A stretch of 63,503 nucleotides of DNA, from positions 1 through 63,503 of IMG/VR virus record IMGVR_UViG_3300034965_000044; one strand, written 5' to 3'. Numbering within the stretch: the stretch's first letter is position 1; the number at the start of each line of letters is the position of its first letter. Made by a program: the position numbers and the translations under genes. This stretch comes from a virus. Taxonomy: Duplodnaviria > Caudoviricetes. Below are positions 2,522 through 59,640 of the stretch, in pieces. The notes under the pieces were generated by a model. The model was not told where the DNA came from. It was given only the letters and a program-made list of their open reading frames with translations, and ran no database searches.

Positions 2522-3151
2522 GTGAACAGAATTCTAATTGCCCTCGCGATGGGCACCGCGCTCGTAACCAGCGCATCGGCGGCCGATCTCGGTGGCAACA
2601 GGAGTTTTAAGGATGACTCGCCCTCGTCGTTTGATGGGGGTGGTAGCGCAAGCTGGACTGGCCCATGGATCGGGGCTTCAGTCGGATATGGCGTCGGCAC
2701 GTTGCGGCCTGACGGCTATGATTTTGGCTACAGCGCTGAGGGGATAATCGCCAAGATCGATGCTGGCATCGATGTTCAGTTTGGGCATTTCGTTGCCGGC
2801 CTTTCGTTGTGCGCTGAATATGTGGACGTTGACGACGCACAGGAGGCGTTGTGCGCTGGCGGACGGCTCGGTCTTTTGATCACCCCTGACAGCTTGATCT
2901 ACGTGCCGGCCGGCTATCGTTGGCAGGGTATCGACACGGGCGGTGATACCGAATATCTCTCAGGTCCCTATGTCGGCCTTGGGCTGGAATCTCGCTTTAC
3001 GCCGAGCACTTCGTTCAAGCTCGAATATCAGCACACCTTCTATTGGGATGAGGGTGGCCACGAGATTCCTGATGGTCTTGCGATCGAAGACAATCGCATT
3101 ATGGGCGGCATCAATATTCGTTTCGGTGGCGATCCCCGGAAGCTGTTCTAA
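2522..3151 (+). CDS. Outer-membrane beta-barrel protein (Omp25/Omp31/RopB-like)
   Basis: Signal peptide ending ASA-ADL, SWTGPWIGASVGYG motif, alternating beta strands, C-terminal Phe; AGGAGA SD. Confidence 0.85.
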   Translation: MNRILIALAMGTALVTSASAADLGGNRSFKDDSPSSFDGGGSASWTGPWIGASVGYGVGTLRPDGYDFGYSAEGIIAKIDAGIDVQFGHFVAGLSLCAEYVDVDDAQEALCAGGRLGLLITPDSLIYVPAGYRWQGIDTGGDTEYLSGPYVGLGLESRFTPSTSFKLEYQHTFYWDEGGHEIPDGLAIEDNRIMGGINIRFGGDPRKLF

Positions 3152-3542: not shown

Positions 3543-3650
3543 CCGGGGGGTCACGATGGCCAGATTGTGCGGTTGGATAGCGTCTCTGTCGGTTCCATGC
3601 GGACTGGTGGTGACGCTGCTGACCCACAATCCGGCTTTCTTCGCACTCAG

Positions 3651-3965
3651 CTACGCCTCGATGGGCGTGTTTGTGGTCGCATCACTCGCGATGCTCGACC
3701 CGTATAATTGAAGCTCCAGCCATCGCAGTGTCGAGGCTGAATCCGCTTCCACTTTCAATTGTAATTCAGAGTTCAGTTTGGGGGGTGTGTAGGGCTCAAG
3801 GCCAGCACGCAGGGCTGCGGCTGCGAGTGACAGAGTGAGGGGAACCTTGGCCTTGGTCAGGGTATTGTAGATCGTCTTTTCGCTGACGCCCAAGAGCTGG
3901 GCCAGCTTTGCATTGGACTGAATGCCAATCTCGGCCTTCAGGATCAGTAGGTCGGTGCCTTTCAT
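3651..3965 (-). CDS. HTH DNA-binding protein
   Basis: SNAKLAQLLGVSEKTIYN helix-turn-helix. Confidence 0.7.
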   Translation of the reverse strand: MKGTDLLILKAEIGIQSNAKLAQLLGVSEKTIYNTLTKAKVPLTLSLAAAALRAGLEPYTPPKLNSELQLKVEADSASTLRWLELQLYGSSIASDATTNTPIEA

Positions 3966-54455: not shown

Positions 54456-54692
54456 TCATTCAATCCATTGAACGCAGTCATCTTTTGAACAGTGCATGTG
54501 GATGTGATCGTTGGGCATGACCATCCAGGTGAAATGCCCAAGCTGACAGATCGGGCAGATGGCCGTGCTCATCCGCACATCGAGGCCGTAGCGCTCTTTC
54601 AGCGCCGCCCGCTCCTCGACCACCCACTCACGCGCCTTCACTCCGATCTCGAAGGCGTGCTTTATGGCATCGGACGGTTTATTGATTGTCAT
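54456..54692 (-). CDS. Small zinc-binding protein
   Basis: CPIC...NDHIHMHCSKDDC. Confidence 0.65.
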   Translation of the reverse strand: MTINKPSDAIKHAFEIGVKAREWVVEERAALKERYGLDVRMSTAICPICQLGHFTWMVMPNDHIHMHCSKDDCVQWIE

Positions 54693-55102
54693 TTATGGTG
54701 TTCCCGTTGATGATGTAGAGCACATAACCATATGACTTCAAATGGCTTAGCATAATCGTTATGATGGGCATGAGATTTCATATCACCACATACCTCACAT
54801 GGTTGTTTAATTAGTCTTCCATCTCTAACGGCGTTATTCACAGCAGTATGAGCCTTGTATTTTTCAGGATTGTCTTTACGGAATTTTAAAGCAGCAGCCC
54901 TGATATGAGCCTTCCTTTTAGGCGTTTTGGCCCGCTCCCGATCATAGGCGCGAACGCTATCGTTTCCGCGCCTATGTTTTCTGACCCTAGACTTAACGCA
55001 GTCTATGCATTTGTTCAGATATCCATCGGCCATCTGAGCATGTTTGTAAAATTGCTCAATCGGCTTTAGTAATTTGCATTCTCGACAGTGCTTCTGTTGC
55101 AT
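54689..55102 (-). CDS. HNH-like zinc-finger protein
   Basis: CREC...FYK...DG..NKCIDC...PCEVCG...HH.DY.KP.EV.WLC..HH. Confidence 0.7.
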   Translation of the reverse strand: MQQKHCRECKLLKPIEQFYKHAQMADGYLNKCIDCVKSRVRKHRRGNDSVRAYDRERAKTPKRKAHIRAAALKFRKDNPEKYKAHTAVNNAVRDGRLIKQPCEVCGDMKSHAHHNDYAKPFEVIWLCALHHQREHHK

Positions 55103-56514: not shown

Positions 56515-56763
56515 CTAACTATAAGCTACACTGGAGTCGGTGTCAACCCCATTGCGCCGCCCCGATAAGACGAACACCAGATCGAAGCCGAGCTTGCTCA
56601 GGCGCTCCAGGGAGGCCGCTGGCGGCTGGTAGCGCCCCACCTCCCAGTTGGAGACGTTCTGCGGGCTTTTGCCGATCGAGGCGGCCAGGACGGCCTGTGT
56701 GAAGCCCAGCCGTTTTCGCTCGATCGCCAGCCGTTCGCCGATTTTTGATTCCATGGGCTCCAT
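56515..56763 (-). CDS. XRE-family HTH transcriptional regulator
   Basis: IGERL..ERKRLGFTQ..LA..IG.S...VSNWE.GR..P. Confidence 0.9.
   Translation of the reverse strand: MEPMESKIGERLAIERKRLGFTQAVLAASIGKSPQNVSNWEVGRYQPPAASLERLSKLGFDLVFVLSGRRNGVDTDSSVAYS
56518..56546 (-). promoter_or_regulatory. sigma70 promoter for the recombination operon
   Basis: TTGACA-17 nt-TATAGT, ending just upstream of the ATG at 56511. Confidence 0.7.
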
Positions 56764-56782
56764 CTTAGCTTATAGTGAACCC

Positions 56783-57331
56783 ATGCTCAAGACATCACAA
56801 CCCCAGCGGCTATGGATGCCAACGCCTCCGTCCGTTAACGAATTGTTCCGCGATGCCGGCTACGGCACAGACAGCAAGACCGGTGGCAGAATACGAAGCC
56901 AGGAATATGGCGCCTGGATCAGCCGAGCCACACAGGAGCTAATGCTCCAGAAGCCGCGCCAGCATGAAGGCAAGGTCACTCTGGACTTCTTCCACGGAAT
57001 GCGCTCCCCATTGGCAGATGCGTCAAATTATCTTAAGGCTAGCGAAGATTTGCTGGTCTCACTTGGTATTTTAGAATCAGACAACGCCAAGGTGGTACAG
57101 CGGGTATCTTCGTGTTGGGTGCCAAATTACATCGGTACTGTTGTTCACATTTTCCCATTTGATGAAAGTGCTCCGCCATATTTGGGTTTCGATTCCGGCG
57201 TTCTTGGACAAGTCGGCGCATCTGCTATTGGCAAATTTATCAAAAGCCCACAAAGCCTCGGCAAAGCCCGCCGGGCGACCACTGGCGCGGCTTGGGCCAG
57301 TGGTGCCGGAGCGAAGAATAAGAAGAAATAG
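56783..57331 (+). CDS. RusA-like Holliday junction resolvase with C-terminal extension
   Basis: PPSVN; D.SNYLKASEDLL..LGILESD...V. Confidence 0.8.
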   Translation: MLKTSQPQRLWMPTPPSVNELFRDAGYGTDSKTGGRIRSQEYGAWISRATQELMLQKPRQHEGKVTLDFFHGMRSPLADASNYLKASEDLLVSLGILESDNAKVVQRVSSCWVPNYIGTVVHIFPFDESAPPYLGFDSGVLGQVGASAIGKFIKSPQSLGKARRATTGAAWASGAGAKNKKK

Positions 57332-57390
57332 AGGTGAGTTGAGACGAGTGAAGCCGAGAGGAAACGAGCCGAATCGAGTCGAGAAGAACC
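57331..57390 (-). repeat. Pentamer array 1 (12 x NN-CTC; GAG-NN on +), candidate guide RNA
   Basis: + strand: gaggt gagtt gagac gagtg aagcc gagag gaaac gagcc gaatc gagtc gagaa gaacc. Confidence 0.9.
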
Positions 57391-57412
57391 GTAAATAAAA
57401 AATAAAATCGCT

Positions 57413-57462
57413 GAGTTGAGCCGAAACGAAGTGAGGTGTGACGAGCTGAGTGGAGCAGAGGC
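57413..57462 (-). repeat. Pentamer array 2 (10 units)
   Basis: + strand: gagtt gagcc gaaac gaagt gaggt gtgac gagct gagtg gagca gaggc. Confidence 0.9.
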
Positions 57463-57464
57463 GT

Positions 57465-58052
57465 TTATTTCCTAGCTATATCAACCAATTCACGATTGTC
57501 TTCCCATTTAATGCTTTCAACAAAAAATCGACCATTTTGACCACCCTTCTCAGGTCTCCAGCGTCCAATGCCGCGAAACTTTCCCGCAACATCCAGATGC
57601 CGGCTAAATACCGGCTCGGTGATCTCTGGATCGAGAATGAGAGCTGAAAACGTCGCAGACCACGGCGCCATGATCGGAAAGCGCCGATAAACTCGCTTAC
57701 CACTGCCGCGAACGCCATCGGCATTCGAATAGATGTCCTCAAAGGTAACATCTGCGGCTTTCACATTGGTTATTCCAGGCTCGATGATGGCCAAGCCGCC
57801 TTCAAAATGCTTTGTCCAAGTCGCCTGACCCTTTTTCTTTTCGCCGAGGTAACGGACGGCGCTGTGCAAGCTCTGCATCAACGCAGTTTCAGGAATGATC
57901 ACTACGCCATCACGAATATGAAGGTGCTCCCTCCAGGTGCGCTTGTCGTAATCCTCTGGGCTTTCGCCACTTTTCTTTGCGGTTTCATGAGCGCGAGACT
58001 GACTGTATACGCCGATGCCGATAATTTTTACGTTTGCGACTGAGGCTTTCAT
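57465..58052 (-). CDS. RAMP/Cas7-like RNA-binding protein associated with the pentamer arrays
   Basis: 195 aa; IP...L...L, YRRFP....W, and a C-terminal Gly-rich loop AG..GIGRWRP.KGG.NGRF.V typical of RAMP proteins; arrays on both sides. Confidence 0.65.
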   Translation of the reverse strand: MKASVANVKIIGIGVYSQSRAHETAKKSGESPEDYDKRTWREHLHIRDGVVIIPETALMQSLHSAVRYLGEKKKGQATWTKHFEGGLAIIEPGITNVKAADVTFEDIYSNADGVRGSGKRVYRRFPIMAPWSATFSALILDPEITEPVFSRHLDVAGKFRGIGRWRPEKGGQNGRFFVESIKWEDNRELVDIARK

Positions 58053-58064
58053 TGTTAATCCATT

Positions 58065-58184
58065 GAGTTGAGTTGAAGAGAGCGGAACCGAGTGGAGTTA
58101 AGGTGAGACGAAGTGAGCGGAGCTGAGTGGAGCGGAGTTAAAGCGAGGCGAGAAAAGCAGAGTCGGGTTGAGATGAGATGAGCG
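58065..58184 (-). repeat. Pentamer array 3 (24 units)
   Basis: Uninterrupted 5-nt period on +: gagtt gagtt gaaga gagcg gaacc gagtg gagtt aaggt gagac gaagt gagcg gagct gagtg gagcg gagtt aaagc gaggc gagaa aagca gagtc gggtt gagat gagat gagcg. Confidence 0.9.
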
Positions 58185-58186
58185 GG

Positions 58187-58585
58187 TTATTCACAAAACT
58201 GTATTGCCAGCCCGAGCTTGTTAAGCTCCTGAGACAACTTGGATCGTTCCTGAGCCGACATATCGCCTTCAAAGGCGCGCACCACACCGACAATCTGTCC
58301 CTGAGCCCTACCAAGACCACGTTGCGCTTTCTGTCGCGCTTTCTGGCCGACGACATCGGCGTCTTTGGGATTGAGCTTTTTCAGGCCGACGCCAATGACA
58401 GTGACAAAAATGCAGCCCTGCTCTTTCTCCACAAGCTTCTTCGCCTGATTGAGTAGGTGAGGCTTGCCCTTCAAGAGGTTGGCCAAGCGCTCCCTTGGAA
58501 TCAATTGCTCAAGTGGCAGCTCGCGCAGGGAATAGGTGAGCGCCCCAAGGATCTTCAGGTTTTCCGGTGTGCTGATGTATGGCAT
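58187..58585 (-). CDS. Basic winged-helix-like protein, first gene of the array operon
   Basis: A.K.VEKE.G.IF.TV.GVGLKKL; AAGG SD. Confidence 0.6.
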   Translation of the reverse strand: MPYISTPENLKILGALTYSLRELPLEQLIPRERLANLLKGKPHLLNQAKKLVEKEQGCIFVTVIGVGLKKLNPKDADVVGQKARQKAQRGLGRAQGQIVGVVRAFEGDMSAQERSKLSQELNKLGLAIQFCE

Positions 58586-58611
58586 TTGACCCTTCCATGT
58601 GGATGTCTGCT

Positions 58612-58640
58612 GATATAAGCGGAACTCACACAATGTCAAG
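58612..58640 (-). promoter_or_regulatory. sigma70-type promoter for the RAMP/array operon
   Basis: CTTGACA-16 nt-TATATC. Confidence 0.6.
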
Positions 58641-58644
58641 TTGG

Positions 58645-59640
58645 TCAGCTCACCAGCCTAACTTTCAACCTAAGGTCGTGATAATGCCAAGCTCCGCTGC
58701 GCTTAACCTTGGTGTATCCCATACCCGTCAAGGTTGTTCCGAACGCAGTTTGGCTTAAAATCGGACGATCGTGCTTTTTTGCCCAGGCGACATAGCTGCG
58801 ATAGAGCATAGACGACTGGGTAAACTGTCCCCGAACCATCTCGCACAACCCGGTCATAAATTCTGTCAAATCATAGGGGTCAGGGATAGTTGGCGGGTTA
58901 CCCGGTATACCCGCCACGGCCTGTTTTAAGGGTTTGGCGGGTTGGACCGATTCAACCCGCCGCAACCCGCCAGACCCGCCACTGAGCAGCGAAAAGATGG
59001 CGATCGGCCCAAGGTCGGCACCCAGTTCCAGGAGGATGGCAAATGCACCGGAAAGCAGGGCTGCCAGGAAGCGTTCATTCAACTTGACGTTGAAGATGGT
59101 TACGGCGAGCGCCGCGATGTTGGCAATGCCAGGATCGACGGCGGAGGGTGCCGGCTCTATACCGGCTCCCCATCCGTCAACCTGCGCTTGCAGTCGCTCG
59201 ATCTGTCTAGCGGTCTCCAGCTTGACCCTCGTCCGGTCCTTCCGATCGCCGCGCGGCATGGCGTCCATCTCGGCCTTCACCACCGCGGCAGACGCCGGGC
59301 CGACCATCTTGCGCAGGTCCGCAACTTGGTCTACGACAGCCTGTCTGTTGTTGGCCTGTCGCTGTTTCTCAGCCCGAATGTCCATGGCCGTATCCCTAAC
59401 CGCCGAGATACCGCTGAGCGAGATGAAGGCGTTCATGGTCATGAAGATCAGCGCCATCGCGCCCCAGCCTATGCGGGCCGTTCCGTGGCTTTCCATGCAG
59501 CGCATGGTGAAGACCGCGGCGAGCGTGGCAAACAACAGTACACCGGCGATCATGTCATTGCCGGCACCCAGGGCAATCTGGGCATTGGCGTTCACCCACG
59601 CAGATGGGATCACGCACAAGATTGCGAGCAGGAATTTCAT
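58645..59640 (-). CDS. Membrane protein with C-terminal winged-helix DNA-binding domain
   Basis: Several TM segments; LYRSY.AW......SQTAFG..L...GY.K, like D5/primase C-terminal wHTH. Confidence 0.65.
   Translation of the reverse strand: MKFLLAILCVIPSAWVNANAQIALGAGNDMIAGVLLFATLAAVFTMRCMESHGTARIGWGAMALIFMTMNAFISLSGISAVRDTAMDIRAEKQRQANNRQAVVDQVADLRKMVGPASAAVVKAEMDAMPRGDRKDRTRVKLETARQIERLQAQVDGWGAGIEPAPSAVDPGIANIAALAVTIFNVKLNERFLAALLSGAFAILLELGADLGPIAIFSLLSGGSGGLRRVESVQPAKPLKQAVAGIPGNPPTIPDPYDLTEFMTGLCEMVRGQFTQSSMLYRSYVAWAKKHDRPILSQTAFGTTLTGMGYTKVKRSGAWHYHDLRLKVRLVS

What the first reader, a model, noticed from the sequence alone, without database searches (positions are those of the whole stretch)
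57331..58640. RAMP/Cas7-like gene bracketed by pentamer (NN-CUC)n arrays: candidate non-CRISPR RNA-guided system
Seen: a leftward unit of promoter (58612-58640), wHTH-like gene, a 24-unit array, a 195-aa gene, a 10-unit array, a U-rich linker and a 12-unit array. Every unit is exactly 5 nt: a near-constant triplet (CTC on the transcribed strand, with TTC/CTT variants) plus a freely varying dinucleotide, with no indels across 46 units. A simple microsatellite would tend to homogenise the NN. Established: the C-terminal G-x-G-x-W-R...G-G-x-x-G-R-F loop is characteristic of RAMP (Cas7/Cas5-type) proteins, which polymerise along RNA with a fixed nucleotide period. Inference: one protomer binds each constant triplet and displays the NN, giving a programmable gapped guide. 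From memory, and to be verified, this resembles recently reported phage VIPR-type systems described with GGY/NN repeats. The CUC constant here would be a different variant. No cas1, cas2 or CRISPR array is present.
Basis: partly seen in the sequence, partly recalled or inferred. Interest (0 to 1): 0.95.

Follow-up and report, generated by a model that had tools for sequence, protein, structure and literature searches.

The report
Phage VIPR system with CUC guides
This phage carries a VIPR system, a CRISPR-like RNA-guided DNA silencer first described in 2026, whose guide RNAs are built on a C-U-C spacer instead of the published G-G-Y, and a closely related phage carries a guide that spells a gene of this very locus.

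Summary
Window 57331-58639 (minus strand) is a VIPR locus on a near-complete 63.5-kb phage genome. It holds a candidate promoter, a winged-helix-like accessory gene (vap), a 24-unit array, a 195-aa Vipr protein, then 10- and 12-unit arrays.

All 46 units are 5 nt: two variable bases plus Y-U-Y (CTC in 32 of 46).

Period-5 arrays flank the gene, read on the gene strand, in 106 of 107 related loci. The fixed triplet differs by locus: CGC 65, GGC 11, CTC 10, CAC 5, CGA 1 of 92 non-identical members. CUC is therefore one recurrent scaffold in a large clade.

No exact target was found. The nearest relative phage has a guide matching this phage's vap at 19 of 20 bases under the published one-base-skip rule (0 of 400 shuffles). 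This fits warfare between related phages.

VIPR and non-canonical units are already in 2026 preprints, but none names CUC in the text I read. This scan already holds 743 notes with the VIPR search words, on other DNA. It is a variant of a known kind, of moderate interest.

The parts
58612..58639 (-). Candidate sigma-70-type promoter of the operon: TTGACA, 16 nt, TATATC
   Evidence: Read. The block CTTGACATT is the longest conserved run in the otherwise divergent upstream region of the relative L028. The consensus scanner did not list it because the -10 ends in C. This is a candidate only.
58187..58585 (-). vap-like accessory gene, 132 aa, with a winged-helix-like N-terminal half and a long helical hairpin
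   Evidence: The ATG and the N-terminus MPYIS are conserved in L028. It matches phrog_5926 at E 3.8e-6 and has no Pfam or NCBIfam match. tblastn finds relatives next to vipr in 18 of 108 loci: 16 downstream and 2 upstream. The AF2 model has pLDDT 90 and topology H-E-H-H-E-E plus two long helices. The best Foldseek PDB rows are all winged-helix regulators, but they are weak (E >= 0.036).
58065..58184 (-). vrRNA array A1: 24 units of NN + YUY, between vap and vipr
   Evidence: The RNA fold is no more stable than shuffles (z +1.33). It may be one long guide or several; the boundaries are not known.
57465..58052 (-). vipr: a 195-aa minimal RAMP protein. By position in the model, the thumb hairpin is about residues 103-128 and the G-loop about 157-176
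57413..57462 (-). vrRNA array A2: 10 units, starting 2 nt after the vipr stop codon
57391..57412 (-). 22-nt U-rich linker between A2 and A3; a possible processing or termination site
   Evidence: Read. No Rfam family matches it and no terminator-like site was listed. Its function is inferred only.
57331..57390 (-). vrRNA array A3: 12 units, abutting the stop codon of the convergent RusA-like gene
58326..58354 (-). Site in vap spelled by a guide of the nearest relative phage (record G001, which holds L028)
   Evidence: Units 1-10 of that phage's first array match at 19 of 20 bases. The match is in frame and skips the wobble base (codons VVGQKARQKA). None of 400 shuffled arrays reached 19. That phage's own vap copy matches at only 16 of 20.
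57185..57219 (+). Near-self match of guide A3 in the adjacent RusA-like gene
Evidence: Units 1-10 match at 18 of 20 bases and all 12 units at 19 of 24. The match is in frame 0 of the plus-strand ORF 56648-57331 and skips the wobble base. Unit-shuffled guides reach 19 of 24 somewhere in the window in 27 of 2000 trials.

Best explanation
This is a VIPR (Viral Interference Programmable Repeat) system on a tailed-phage genome.

Inferred from the solved SUSP1 system: one operon gives a winged-helix-like accessory protein (Vap), the Vipr protein, and three tracts of guide RNA. Vipr protomers line up along each guide, one per 5-nt unit. They bury the fixed triplet, here Y-U-Y (mostly CUC) rather than GGY, and present the two variable bases. 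The presented dinucleotides pair with double-stranded DNA that reads NN-x-NN-x, with one base skipped per unit. The filament then blocks transcription.

Inferred from one cross-match and from near-self matches: the targets are most likely rival, closely related phages, including their VIPR operons.

Shown here: the anatomy of the locus, the homology and fold of the protein, the constancy of the arrangement across the family, and a skip-1 match between a relative's guide and this phage's vap.

Not shown: transcription, processing, binding and silencing.
For: Homology: the solved SUSP1 Vipr protein is the only PDB hit of a 30-sequence profile (E 4.1e-7, profile positions 78-182 against chain residues 87-188).

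The G-loop residues W178 and R179 of SUSP1 align with W165 and R166.

Anatomy: 46 units with no indels within an array, and this is the only period-5 signal in the genome.

Family: the protein has 1019 relatives at E <= 1e-3 and 976 representative clusters. Period-5 arrays flank the gene in 106 of 107 fetched loci, read as NN plus a fixed triplet on the gene strand.

The 11 GGC-class members carry the canonical unit on that same strand. This sets the transcribed strand for the CUC arrays by continuity.

Guides vary while genes are conserved: L028 has Vipr at 79% and Vap at 66% identity, but its arrays have 15, 11 and 17 units with different dinucleotides.

Skip rule: own-locus near-matches (>= 17 of 20) occur in 8 of 92 loci under skip 1. 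Shuffled arrays give a mean of 0.73 and a maximum of 4 in 60 shuffles. Skips 0, 2 and 3 give none.

Kin targeting: a guide of G001 matches this phage's vap at 19 of 20, with 0 of 400 shuffles as good.

Context: the record is a virus record 96% complete with terminase, adaptor, tail and endolysin genes. It has no Cas1 or Cas2.

Mechanism by homology: paper .720920 Results and paper .720927 sections 5 and 6.
Against: The fixed triplet is not GGY.

Two SUSP1 residues that hold the guanines and are needed for silencing are replaced: D177 by R164 and R138 by F125. The RNA contacts therefore cannot be copied over directly.

The single-sequence hit to SUSP1 Vipr is weak (E 4.7e-4). It is matched by an equally scored hit to a designed repeat protein, 8g8i_A, which is surely spurious.

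No conserved 3' tail or pseudoknot is evident, and there is no Rfam match.

No exact target of this phage's own guides was found. Seven 8-9-unit seeds against IMG/VR gave 25, 15, 3, 9, 13, 18 and 0 hits, and the extensions were at chance level except for one doubtful case.

Window guides have no hit at >= 17 of 20 in the relative phage.

All-against-all cross hits at >= 18 of 20 were at chance: 5 observed against 0-6 in five shuffles.

There is no expression evidence.
Confidence: 0.85

Rival explanations
1. It is the same system, but the job of guide A3 is self-regulation. It would bind this phage's own RusA-like gene (57185-57219), next to the array, and tune or time that gene or the convergent transcription, rather than attack rivals.
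For: A3 units 1-10 match at 18 of 20, in frame and skipping the wobble base, within 200 nt of the array. Only 27 of 2000 shuffles do as well. Near-self matches are enriched family-wide under skip 1: 8 of 92 loci against a shuffled mean of 0.73. One of them lies just before a vipr start and one inside vipr.
Against: The match is imperfect: one whole unit is mismatched and the last two units are off. In L028 the best own match in the RusA-like gene is only 19 of 26 bases and lies at a different place in the gene. Paper .759431 reports that self-match scores are lower than scores against rivals, read as avoidance of autoimmunity (passage). Paper .720920 found no self hit at >= 80% (passage). The near-self sites have no common position across loci.
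Confidence: 0.2
2. The guides are transcribed from the other strand, so the scaffold is GAG-NN and not CUC-NN.
For: No RNA data exist. GAG at least contains guanines, as the published units do. A few relatives have an array that reads in the opposite sense on the gene strand (nnGaG upstream in L101, ncgTG in L081).
Against: In the same protein family the canonical GGC units lie on the gene strand (11 of 92 members). All classes share a C at the third fixed position, which corresponds to the pyrimidine Y3 pocket, and R179 there is conserved as R166. The candidate promoter and both genes point the same way. Arrays start 2 nt after the vipr stop codon.
Confidence: 0.05
3. The tracts work as DNA, not as RNA guides. 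They could be binding sites for the winged-helix protein, or a slippage-prone pyrimidine microsatellite.
For: The accessory protein looks DNA-binding. The arrays are simple in composition.
Against: A microsatellite would homogenise; here there are 14 distinct dinucleotides in 46 units and a strict 5-nt register. The arrays travel with the RAMP gene in 106 of 107 loci, whereas a vap relative is detectable in only 18 of 108. A relative's array spells a coding sequence at 19 of 20 under a skip-1 code, which a binding-site array has no reason to do.
Confidence: 0.03

Closest known systems
Type II VIPR of Escherichia phage SUSP1 and the Pseudomonas fulva prophage (bioRxiv 10.64898/2026.04.26.720920 and .720927; PDB 36pp)
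   Same: A lone minimal RAMP protein of about 200 aa with a thumb and a G-loop. An adjacent DNA-binding-type accessory gene. Guide tracts both upstream and downstream of the genes on the same strand. 5-nt units made of three fixed and two variable bases. Phage-borne, with no cas1, cas2 or CRISPR array. Evidence here for the one-base-skip code, and for a guide aimed at a rival's VIPR operon.
   Different: The fixed triplet is Y-U-Y (CUC), not GGY. SUSP1 D177 and R138 are replaced by R164 and F125. Sequence similarity is detectable only over the C-terminal half (E 4e-7 with a profile). No conserved 3' tail or pseudoknot is seen; across the family the arrays tend to end in units whose variable pair is AA (56% and 50% of 286 arrays for the last two units, against 15% overall). 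Here vap lies upstream of vipr. A1 has 24 units.
Non-canonical VIPR arrays reported from a genomic language model (bioRxiv 10.64898/2026.10.21.760802)
   Same: That preprint's text reports 21 clusters (6,318 sequences) of period-5 arrays next to Vipr-like folds with fixed triplets other than GGY, naming GAC, CAC, WGT and TGH (passages). CAC-type arrays occur in this same protein family here (5 of 92).
   Different: CUC/CTC and CGC are not named in its main text (0 occurrences). Its Fig. S10A, which lists all patterns, could not be seen. It makes no statement on targets or on switching of the triplet within a clade.
Cas7-family RAMP subunits of class 1 CRISPR effectors (Csm3, Cmr4, type VII Cas7)
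   Different: There is no CRISPR repeat-spacer array, no Cas1 or Cas2, and no other cas genes. The period is 5 nt rather than 6. Three guide bases and one target base are flipped out per unit.

Membership tests
VIPR system | A lone minimal RAMP protein (RRM core, thumb, glycine-rich loop) related to Vipr | tested here: met
VIPR system | Tandem 5-nt units of three fixed plus two hypervariable bases, about 9-16 or more per guide, beside vipr on its strand | tested here: met
   24, 10 and 12 units. This is the only period-5 signal in the genome. The same arrangement is seen in 106 of 107 relatives.
VIPR system | The fixed triplet is GGY | tested here: not met
   The triplet is Y-U-Y, with CTC in 32 of 46 units. 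The papers allow 'a related consensus' and list NNNGG, YNNNG and NNNNG, and GAC, CAC, WGT and TGH. None of these is CUC.
VIPR system | Guanine-holding residues of SUSP1 Vipr (D177, R138) and the stacking and pyrimidine-pocket residues (W178, R179) | tested here: not met
   D177 aligns with R164 and R138 with F125. W178 and R179 are kept as W165 and R166 (residue roles). This fits a changed fixed triplet with a pyrimidine kept at position 3.
VIPR system | An adjacent accessory gene (vap) that travels with vipr | tested here: met
   A 132-aa gene lies directly upstream. Relatives lie beside vipr in 18 of 108 loci by tblastn. That is a low-sensitivity search, so it gives a lower bound.
VIPR system | The vap protein is of DNA-binding type (types II, VI, VII) | tested here: inconclusive
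   The model has pLDDT 90 and a winged-helix topology. The best PDB rows are winged-helix regulators, but only at E 0.036 or worse.
VIPR system | No CRISPR array and no cas1 or cas2; carried by a virus | tested here: met
   Cas1 and Cas2 profiles give no match, with positive controls in 7 and 6 of 14 genomes. No CRISPR-like repeat was found. The record is a virus record 96% complete with phage structural genes.
VIPR system | Targets read NN-x (one base skipped per unit) | tested here: met
   In silico only. Own-locus near-matches occur in 8 of 92 loci under skip 1, against a shuffled mean of 0.73; there are none under skip 0, 2 or 3. A relative's guide matches this phage's vap at 19 of 20, and 0 of 400 shuffles do as well.
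VIPR system | Guides are transcribed, processed and co-purify with Vipr; silencing depends on both | not testable with these tools
   No sequencing run was listed for the locus.
VIPR system (type II, SUSP1 clade only) | An invariant 3' tail with a pseudoknot after each repeat tract | tested here: not met
   The sequences after A1, A2 and A3 differ from one another. Rfam gives no match. The folds are no better than shuffles. Which of the seven types this locus belongs to could not be decided, because the type tables are in supplements.
Class 1 CRISPR-Cas effector (Cas7) | A CRISPR repeat-spacer array and adaptation genes with further cas genes | tested here: not met
   Only the Cas7-type fold is shared.

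The most novel reading that the evidence does not exclude
Within one Vipr clade the fixed triplet of the guide has been re-specified again and again: CGC, CUC, CAC and GGC, with CUC arising at least three times. Matching changes appear in the protein: residue 109 is no longer Ala in 9 of 10 CUC members, and residue 164 is Gln in all 5 CAC members. If these switches make a Vipr protein blind to guides built on another scaffold, then scaffold change is an escape from guide theft and decoy guides between competing phages. This G-free CUC system would then be a naturally orthogonal VIPR channel. Here it is caught in conflict with a sister phage that shares its scaffold and carries a guide against its vap gene.
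Probability: 0.25. Interest if true: 0.7.

Novelty: new variant of a known kind. Interest (0 to 1): 0.45.

Why it matters
VIPR is months old in print, and its rules come mostly from GGY systems of enterobacterial and Pseudomonas phages. This locus shows a complete system whose guide scaffold has no guanine at all, in a clade with about a thousand detectable members.

In that clade the middle base of the scaffold changes often while the last base stays C. This gives a natural series for working out how Vipr reads its scaffold. It also points to possible mutually orthogonal Vipr-guide pairs, which would be useful tools.

The cross-match between two sister phages gives a concrete, testable pair for VIPR-against-VIPR conflict outside E. 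coli.

The kind of system, its mechanism and the existence of odd scaffolds are already reported, so the advance is incremental.

Tried and rejected
1. D177-to-R164 as the cause of the G-to-C change at scaffold position 1. Rejected: the 11 GGC-class relatives also have R164 (11 of 11).

2. Covariation of protein columns with the scaffold. Residue 109 is Ala in 60 of 65 CGC members and in 1 of 10 CTC members. Residue 164 is Gln in 5 of 5 CAC members and Arg in 65 of 65 CGC members. The independent-pairs test has only 3 and 1 well-supported pairs and cannot reach significance. This stays a lead only.

3. Targets in IMG/VR. Seven exact gapped seeds gave 25, 15, 3, 9, 13, 18 and 0 hits. The extensions were at chance except at L167 4369-4401, where A1 units 1-11 match exactly. 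I rate that as probably chance, for four reasons. The corrected p is about 0.04 by my own arithmetic. That contig has 46% G+C against 58.5% here. The skipped base falls on codon position 1 of a 109-aa ORF on the other strand. No other guide converges on that contig. The 18-of-20 hits of A2 (L152, L155) are expected by chance in a collection of that size; that collection size is my own estimate.

4. Host-chromosome targets. A3 units 1-10 with up to 1 mismatch gave 2 hits in 401 alphaproteobacterial genomes, against 1 for the reversed control pattern. With up to 2 mismatches there was 1 hit in 5 genomes. None lies in a RusA-like gene. All are at chance level.

5. Window guides against the sister phage G001: none reached 17 of 20.

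6. All-against-all guide search over 92 loci at >= 18 of 20: 5 cross hits against 0-6 in five shuffles. There is no general signal, so only the sister-phage pair, which I tested as a pair by itself, counts.

7. Closer relatives. The metagenome scan returned only 3 distant loci. tblastn against 50,697 deposited phages found no match.

8. Rfam found no family, hence no hammerhead-type spacer elements. No terminator-like site was listed.

9. Sequencing runs: none was listed, and no RNA holder was listed.

10. The type of the system (I to VII) could not be assigned. The type tables, Fig. S17 of .720920 and Fig. S10A of .760802 are figures or supplements I could not see. They may already show a CUC or CGC unit.
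Full report
WHAT IS THERE

Read on the minus strand, the locus runs in this order:
- a candidate promoter, TTGACA-16-TATATC, at 58612-58639;
- a 132-aa gene at 58187-58585;
- array A1 at 58065-58184, 24 units;
- a 195-aa gene at 57465-58052;
- array A2 at 57413-57462, 10 units;
- a 22-nt U-rich linker;
- array A3 at 57331-57390, 12 units, ending at the stop codon of a convergent RusA-like gene.

Every unit is 5 nt. Over the 46 units the third, fourth and fifth positions are C37/T9, T44/C1/A1 and C42/T4. The first two positions use all four bases, with 14 distinct dinucleotides. The exact triplet is CTC in 32 of 46 units.

In 50-nt windows over the whole record, the period-5 self-match averages 0.25 (sd 0.067). 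All 119 windows at 0.55 or more fall in these two intergenic tracts.

THE RECORD

The window is the entire record. It is a linear virus record of 63,503 bases, rated 96% complete. It carries a large terminase, a head-tail adaptor, tail proteins, tail fibres and an endolysin. It has no Cas1 or Cas2; the same searches ring in 7 and 6 of 14 control genomes. There is no CRISPR-like repeat.

THE 195-AA PROTEIN

Pfam and NCBIfam give nothing. PHROGs gives phrog_4652, of unknown function, at E 2.1e-8.

Against the sequences of solved structures, phmmer finds 'SUSP1 Vipr protein' (36pp_D) at E 4.7e-4. It also finds a designed repeat protein at a similar E, which I take to be spurious. A profile of 30 relatives finds the Vipr chain alone, at E 4.1e-7 over chain residues 87-188.

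W178 and R179 are kept as W165 and R166. D177 and R138, which hold the two guanines and are needed for silencing (paper .720927 section 5), are R164 and F125 here.

THE LITERATURE

VIPR was described in 2026 preprints. For 10.64898/2026.04.26.720920 I read the outline, the whole Results, Methods sections 18 and 20, and passages. For .720927 I read the outline, sections 5 and 6, and passages. For 10.64898/2026.10.15.759431 I read the outline and passages. For 10.64898/2026.10.21.760802 I read passages only.

They report:
- a lone ancestral RAMP protein, an accessory vap gene, and guide RNAs of 9-16 YNNGG units;
- one protomer per unit;
- pairing of the NN bases to double-stranded DNA with one base skipped;
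- transcriptional silencing;
- targets in rival phages and satellites, including other VIPR systems.

Other unit forms named in their text are NNNGG, YNNNG and NNNNG, and GAC, CAC, WGT and TGH. The words CUC, CTC and CGC occur nowhere in the main text of the three papers searched for all three. The fourth.759431, was searched for CUC only and does not hold it. The figures that show the logos (S17, S10A) were not visible to me.

THE FAMILY

The protein has 1019 relatives at E <= 1e-3 in the word-indexed search and 976 representative clusters in the exhaustive one. I fetched 27 genome loci, mostly alphaproteobacterial metagenome bins, and 80 viral loci.

A period-5 detector finds arrays beside the gene in 106 of 107 loci. 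The exception is a locus cut off inside the gene. In each case the array reads on the gene strand as NN plus a fixed triplet.

For classification I dropped that locus and one other with fewer than 15 units, and merged identical proteins. That left 92 members, the window among them. Their triplets are CGC in 65, GGC in 11, CTC in 10, CAC in 5 and CGA in 1. Many CGC loci hold a minority of CTC and CAC units.

On a quick maximum-likelihood tree, CTC needs 6 changes, at least 3 of them forced by well-supported branches. The window and L028 form their own clade with 100% support.

Because the canonical GGC members read on the gene strand, the CUC arrays are most simply read on that strand too. All classes keep C at the third fixed position, which fits the conserved pyrimidine pocket.

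Across 286 arrays the median length is 14 units. The variable pair of the last two units is AA in 56% and 50% of arrays, against 15% overall. This points to a short conserved 3' end rather than the SUSP1-type tail.

THE ACCESSORY GENE

The 132-aa protein matches phrog_5926 at E 3.8e-6. It has 9 close relatives. tblastn detects relatives beside vipr in 18 of 108 loci: upstream in the window and L028, and downstream on the same strand in 16.

Its model (pLDDT 90) has a winged-helix topology followed by two long helices. The PDB matches are all winged-helix regulators, but weak (E 0.036 or worse).

WHAT THE GUIDES POINT AT

This phage's own guides have no convincing target in what I could search (details under Tried and rejected). 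Three results bear on function.

First, guide A3 nearly matches the neighbouring RusA-like gene of its own genome. Units 1-10 match at 18 of 20 bases, in frame with the wobble base skipped, at 57185-57213. Shuffled guides do as well over all 12 units in 27 of 2000 trials.

Second, such near-self matches are a family trait and obey the published code. Matches of 17 or more of 20 within the guide's own locus occur in 8 of 92 loci with one skipped base. Shuffled arrays give a mean of 0.73 and a maximum of 4 in 60 shuffles. With 0, 2 or 3 skipped bases there are none.

Third, the sister phage (record G001, 63,852 bases, Vipr 79% identical) has a first array whose units 1-10 match this phage's vap gene. 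The match is 19 of 20 at 58326-58354, on the coding strand, in frame and skipping the wobble base. None of 400 shuffled arrays reached 19. The sister's own vap copy matches at only 16 of 20.

This is the pattern that paper .759431 describes for guides aimed at relatives' VIPR systems with lower self-match (passage).

One caution applies. An all-against-all search of the 92 loci gave cross hits at chance level. The sister-pair result therefore stands alone, as a pair tested by itself.

HOW IT MOST LIKELY WORKS

Shown here:
- a Vipr homologue with a RAMP fold;
- guide-like arrays in the family-typical arrangement;
- in-silico support for the one-base-skip code.

Inferred by homology with SUSP1:
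- the operon is transcribed from the conserved promoter;
- the array tracts are cut out;
- Vipr protomers coat each guide, one per unit, bury Y-U-Y and present NN;
- the filament binds NN-x DNA and blocks transcription.

Inferred from the cross-match and the near-self matches: the targets are close relatives competing for the same host, including their VIPR operons. A block inside vap would also silence vipr and the arrays downstream of it.

COMPARISON AND NOVELTY

It works like a VIPR system and fits every defining feature that I could test, except the letters of the fixed triplet, two guanine-contact residues, and the type II tail. Those exceptions make it a scaffold variant, not a new kind.

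Odd scaffolds are already in print in general terms, and this scan already holds 743 notes with the VIPR search words in at least 492 genomes. One of them describes an A-Y-A scaffold (e1-5709135).

What may be new:
- the G-free CUC unit;
- the finding that one Vipr clade switches the middle base of the scaffold repeatedly;
- the concrete sister-phage conflict.

Interest is moderate.

Noticed in passing
L073 (viral locus), arrays 2645-3001 and 3553-3844: One locus mixes scaffolds. The arrays upstream of vipr read mostly CGC and two of the three downstream arrays read mostly CTC (53 CGC and 40 CTC units in all). Its Vipr has Cys at the position that is Ala in 60 of 65 CGC members. It may be a protein that accepts both middle bases.
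   Followed up: partly
Family alignment, window residues 109 and 164: Residue 164 (SUSP1 D177) is Gln in 5 of 5 CAC-scaffold members and Arg in 65 of 65 CGC members. Residue 109 is Ala in 60 of 65 CGC members but in only 1 of 10 CTC members. These are possible readers of the middle scaffold base. The phylogenetically independent test was underpowered.
   Followed up: partly
L167:4369-4401 (IMG/VR contig, 46% G+C): Units 1-11 of array A1 match exactly (22 specified bases), inside a 109-aa zinc-ribbon-like ORF on the other strand. I name it Lar-like from the look of the sequence only, without a family search. The match is borderline after multiple testing, the skipped base falls on codon position 1, and no other guide converges there. 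It is probably chance.
   Followed up: yes
Family-wide, 286 arrays in 92 loci; in the window the ends of A1, A2 and A3: Arrays tend to end in one or two units whose variable pair is AA (56% and 50%, against 15% overall). This suggests a conserved 3' end signal in place of the SUSP1-type tail. A1 also has internal AA units at positions 4, 10 and 18, which could mark internal guide boundaries.
   Followed up: partly
L101:2758-2850 and L081:2720-2806: In two relatives one upstream array reads as the reverse complement of the locus's usual unit on the gene strand (nnGaG, ncgTG). That is an inverted array, possibly transcribed divergently.
   Followed up: no
window 58645-59640 (-), 56515-56763 (-), 54689-55102 (-): The neighbours of the locus are as follows. 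One is a 331-aa protein whose C-terminus weakly resembles the primase/D5 C-terminal domain (Pfam E 0.0012, below the cut-off; several PHROG primase and helicase families). Another is an 82-aa protein that looks like an XRE-type helix-turn-helix regulator. The third is a 137-aa protein with an HNH-like motif. The last two are judged by eye from the translations. The VIPR locus sits in the replication and recombination region.
   Followed up: partly
window 56648-57331 (+): The convergent gene matches RusA-like Holliday junction resolvase families (phrog_34, E 3.3e-6). Its only homologue among the fetched loci is in the sister phage, at the same position and 43% identical. The listed ORF probably starts too far upstream.
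   Followed up: partly
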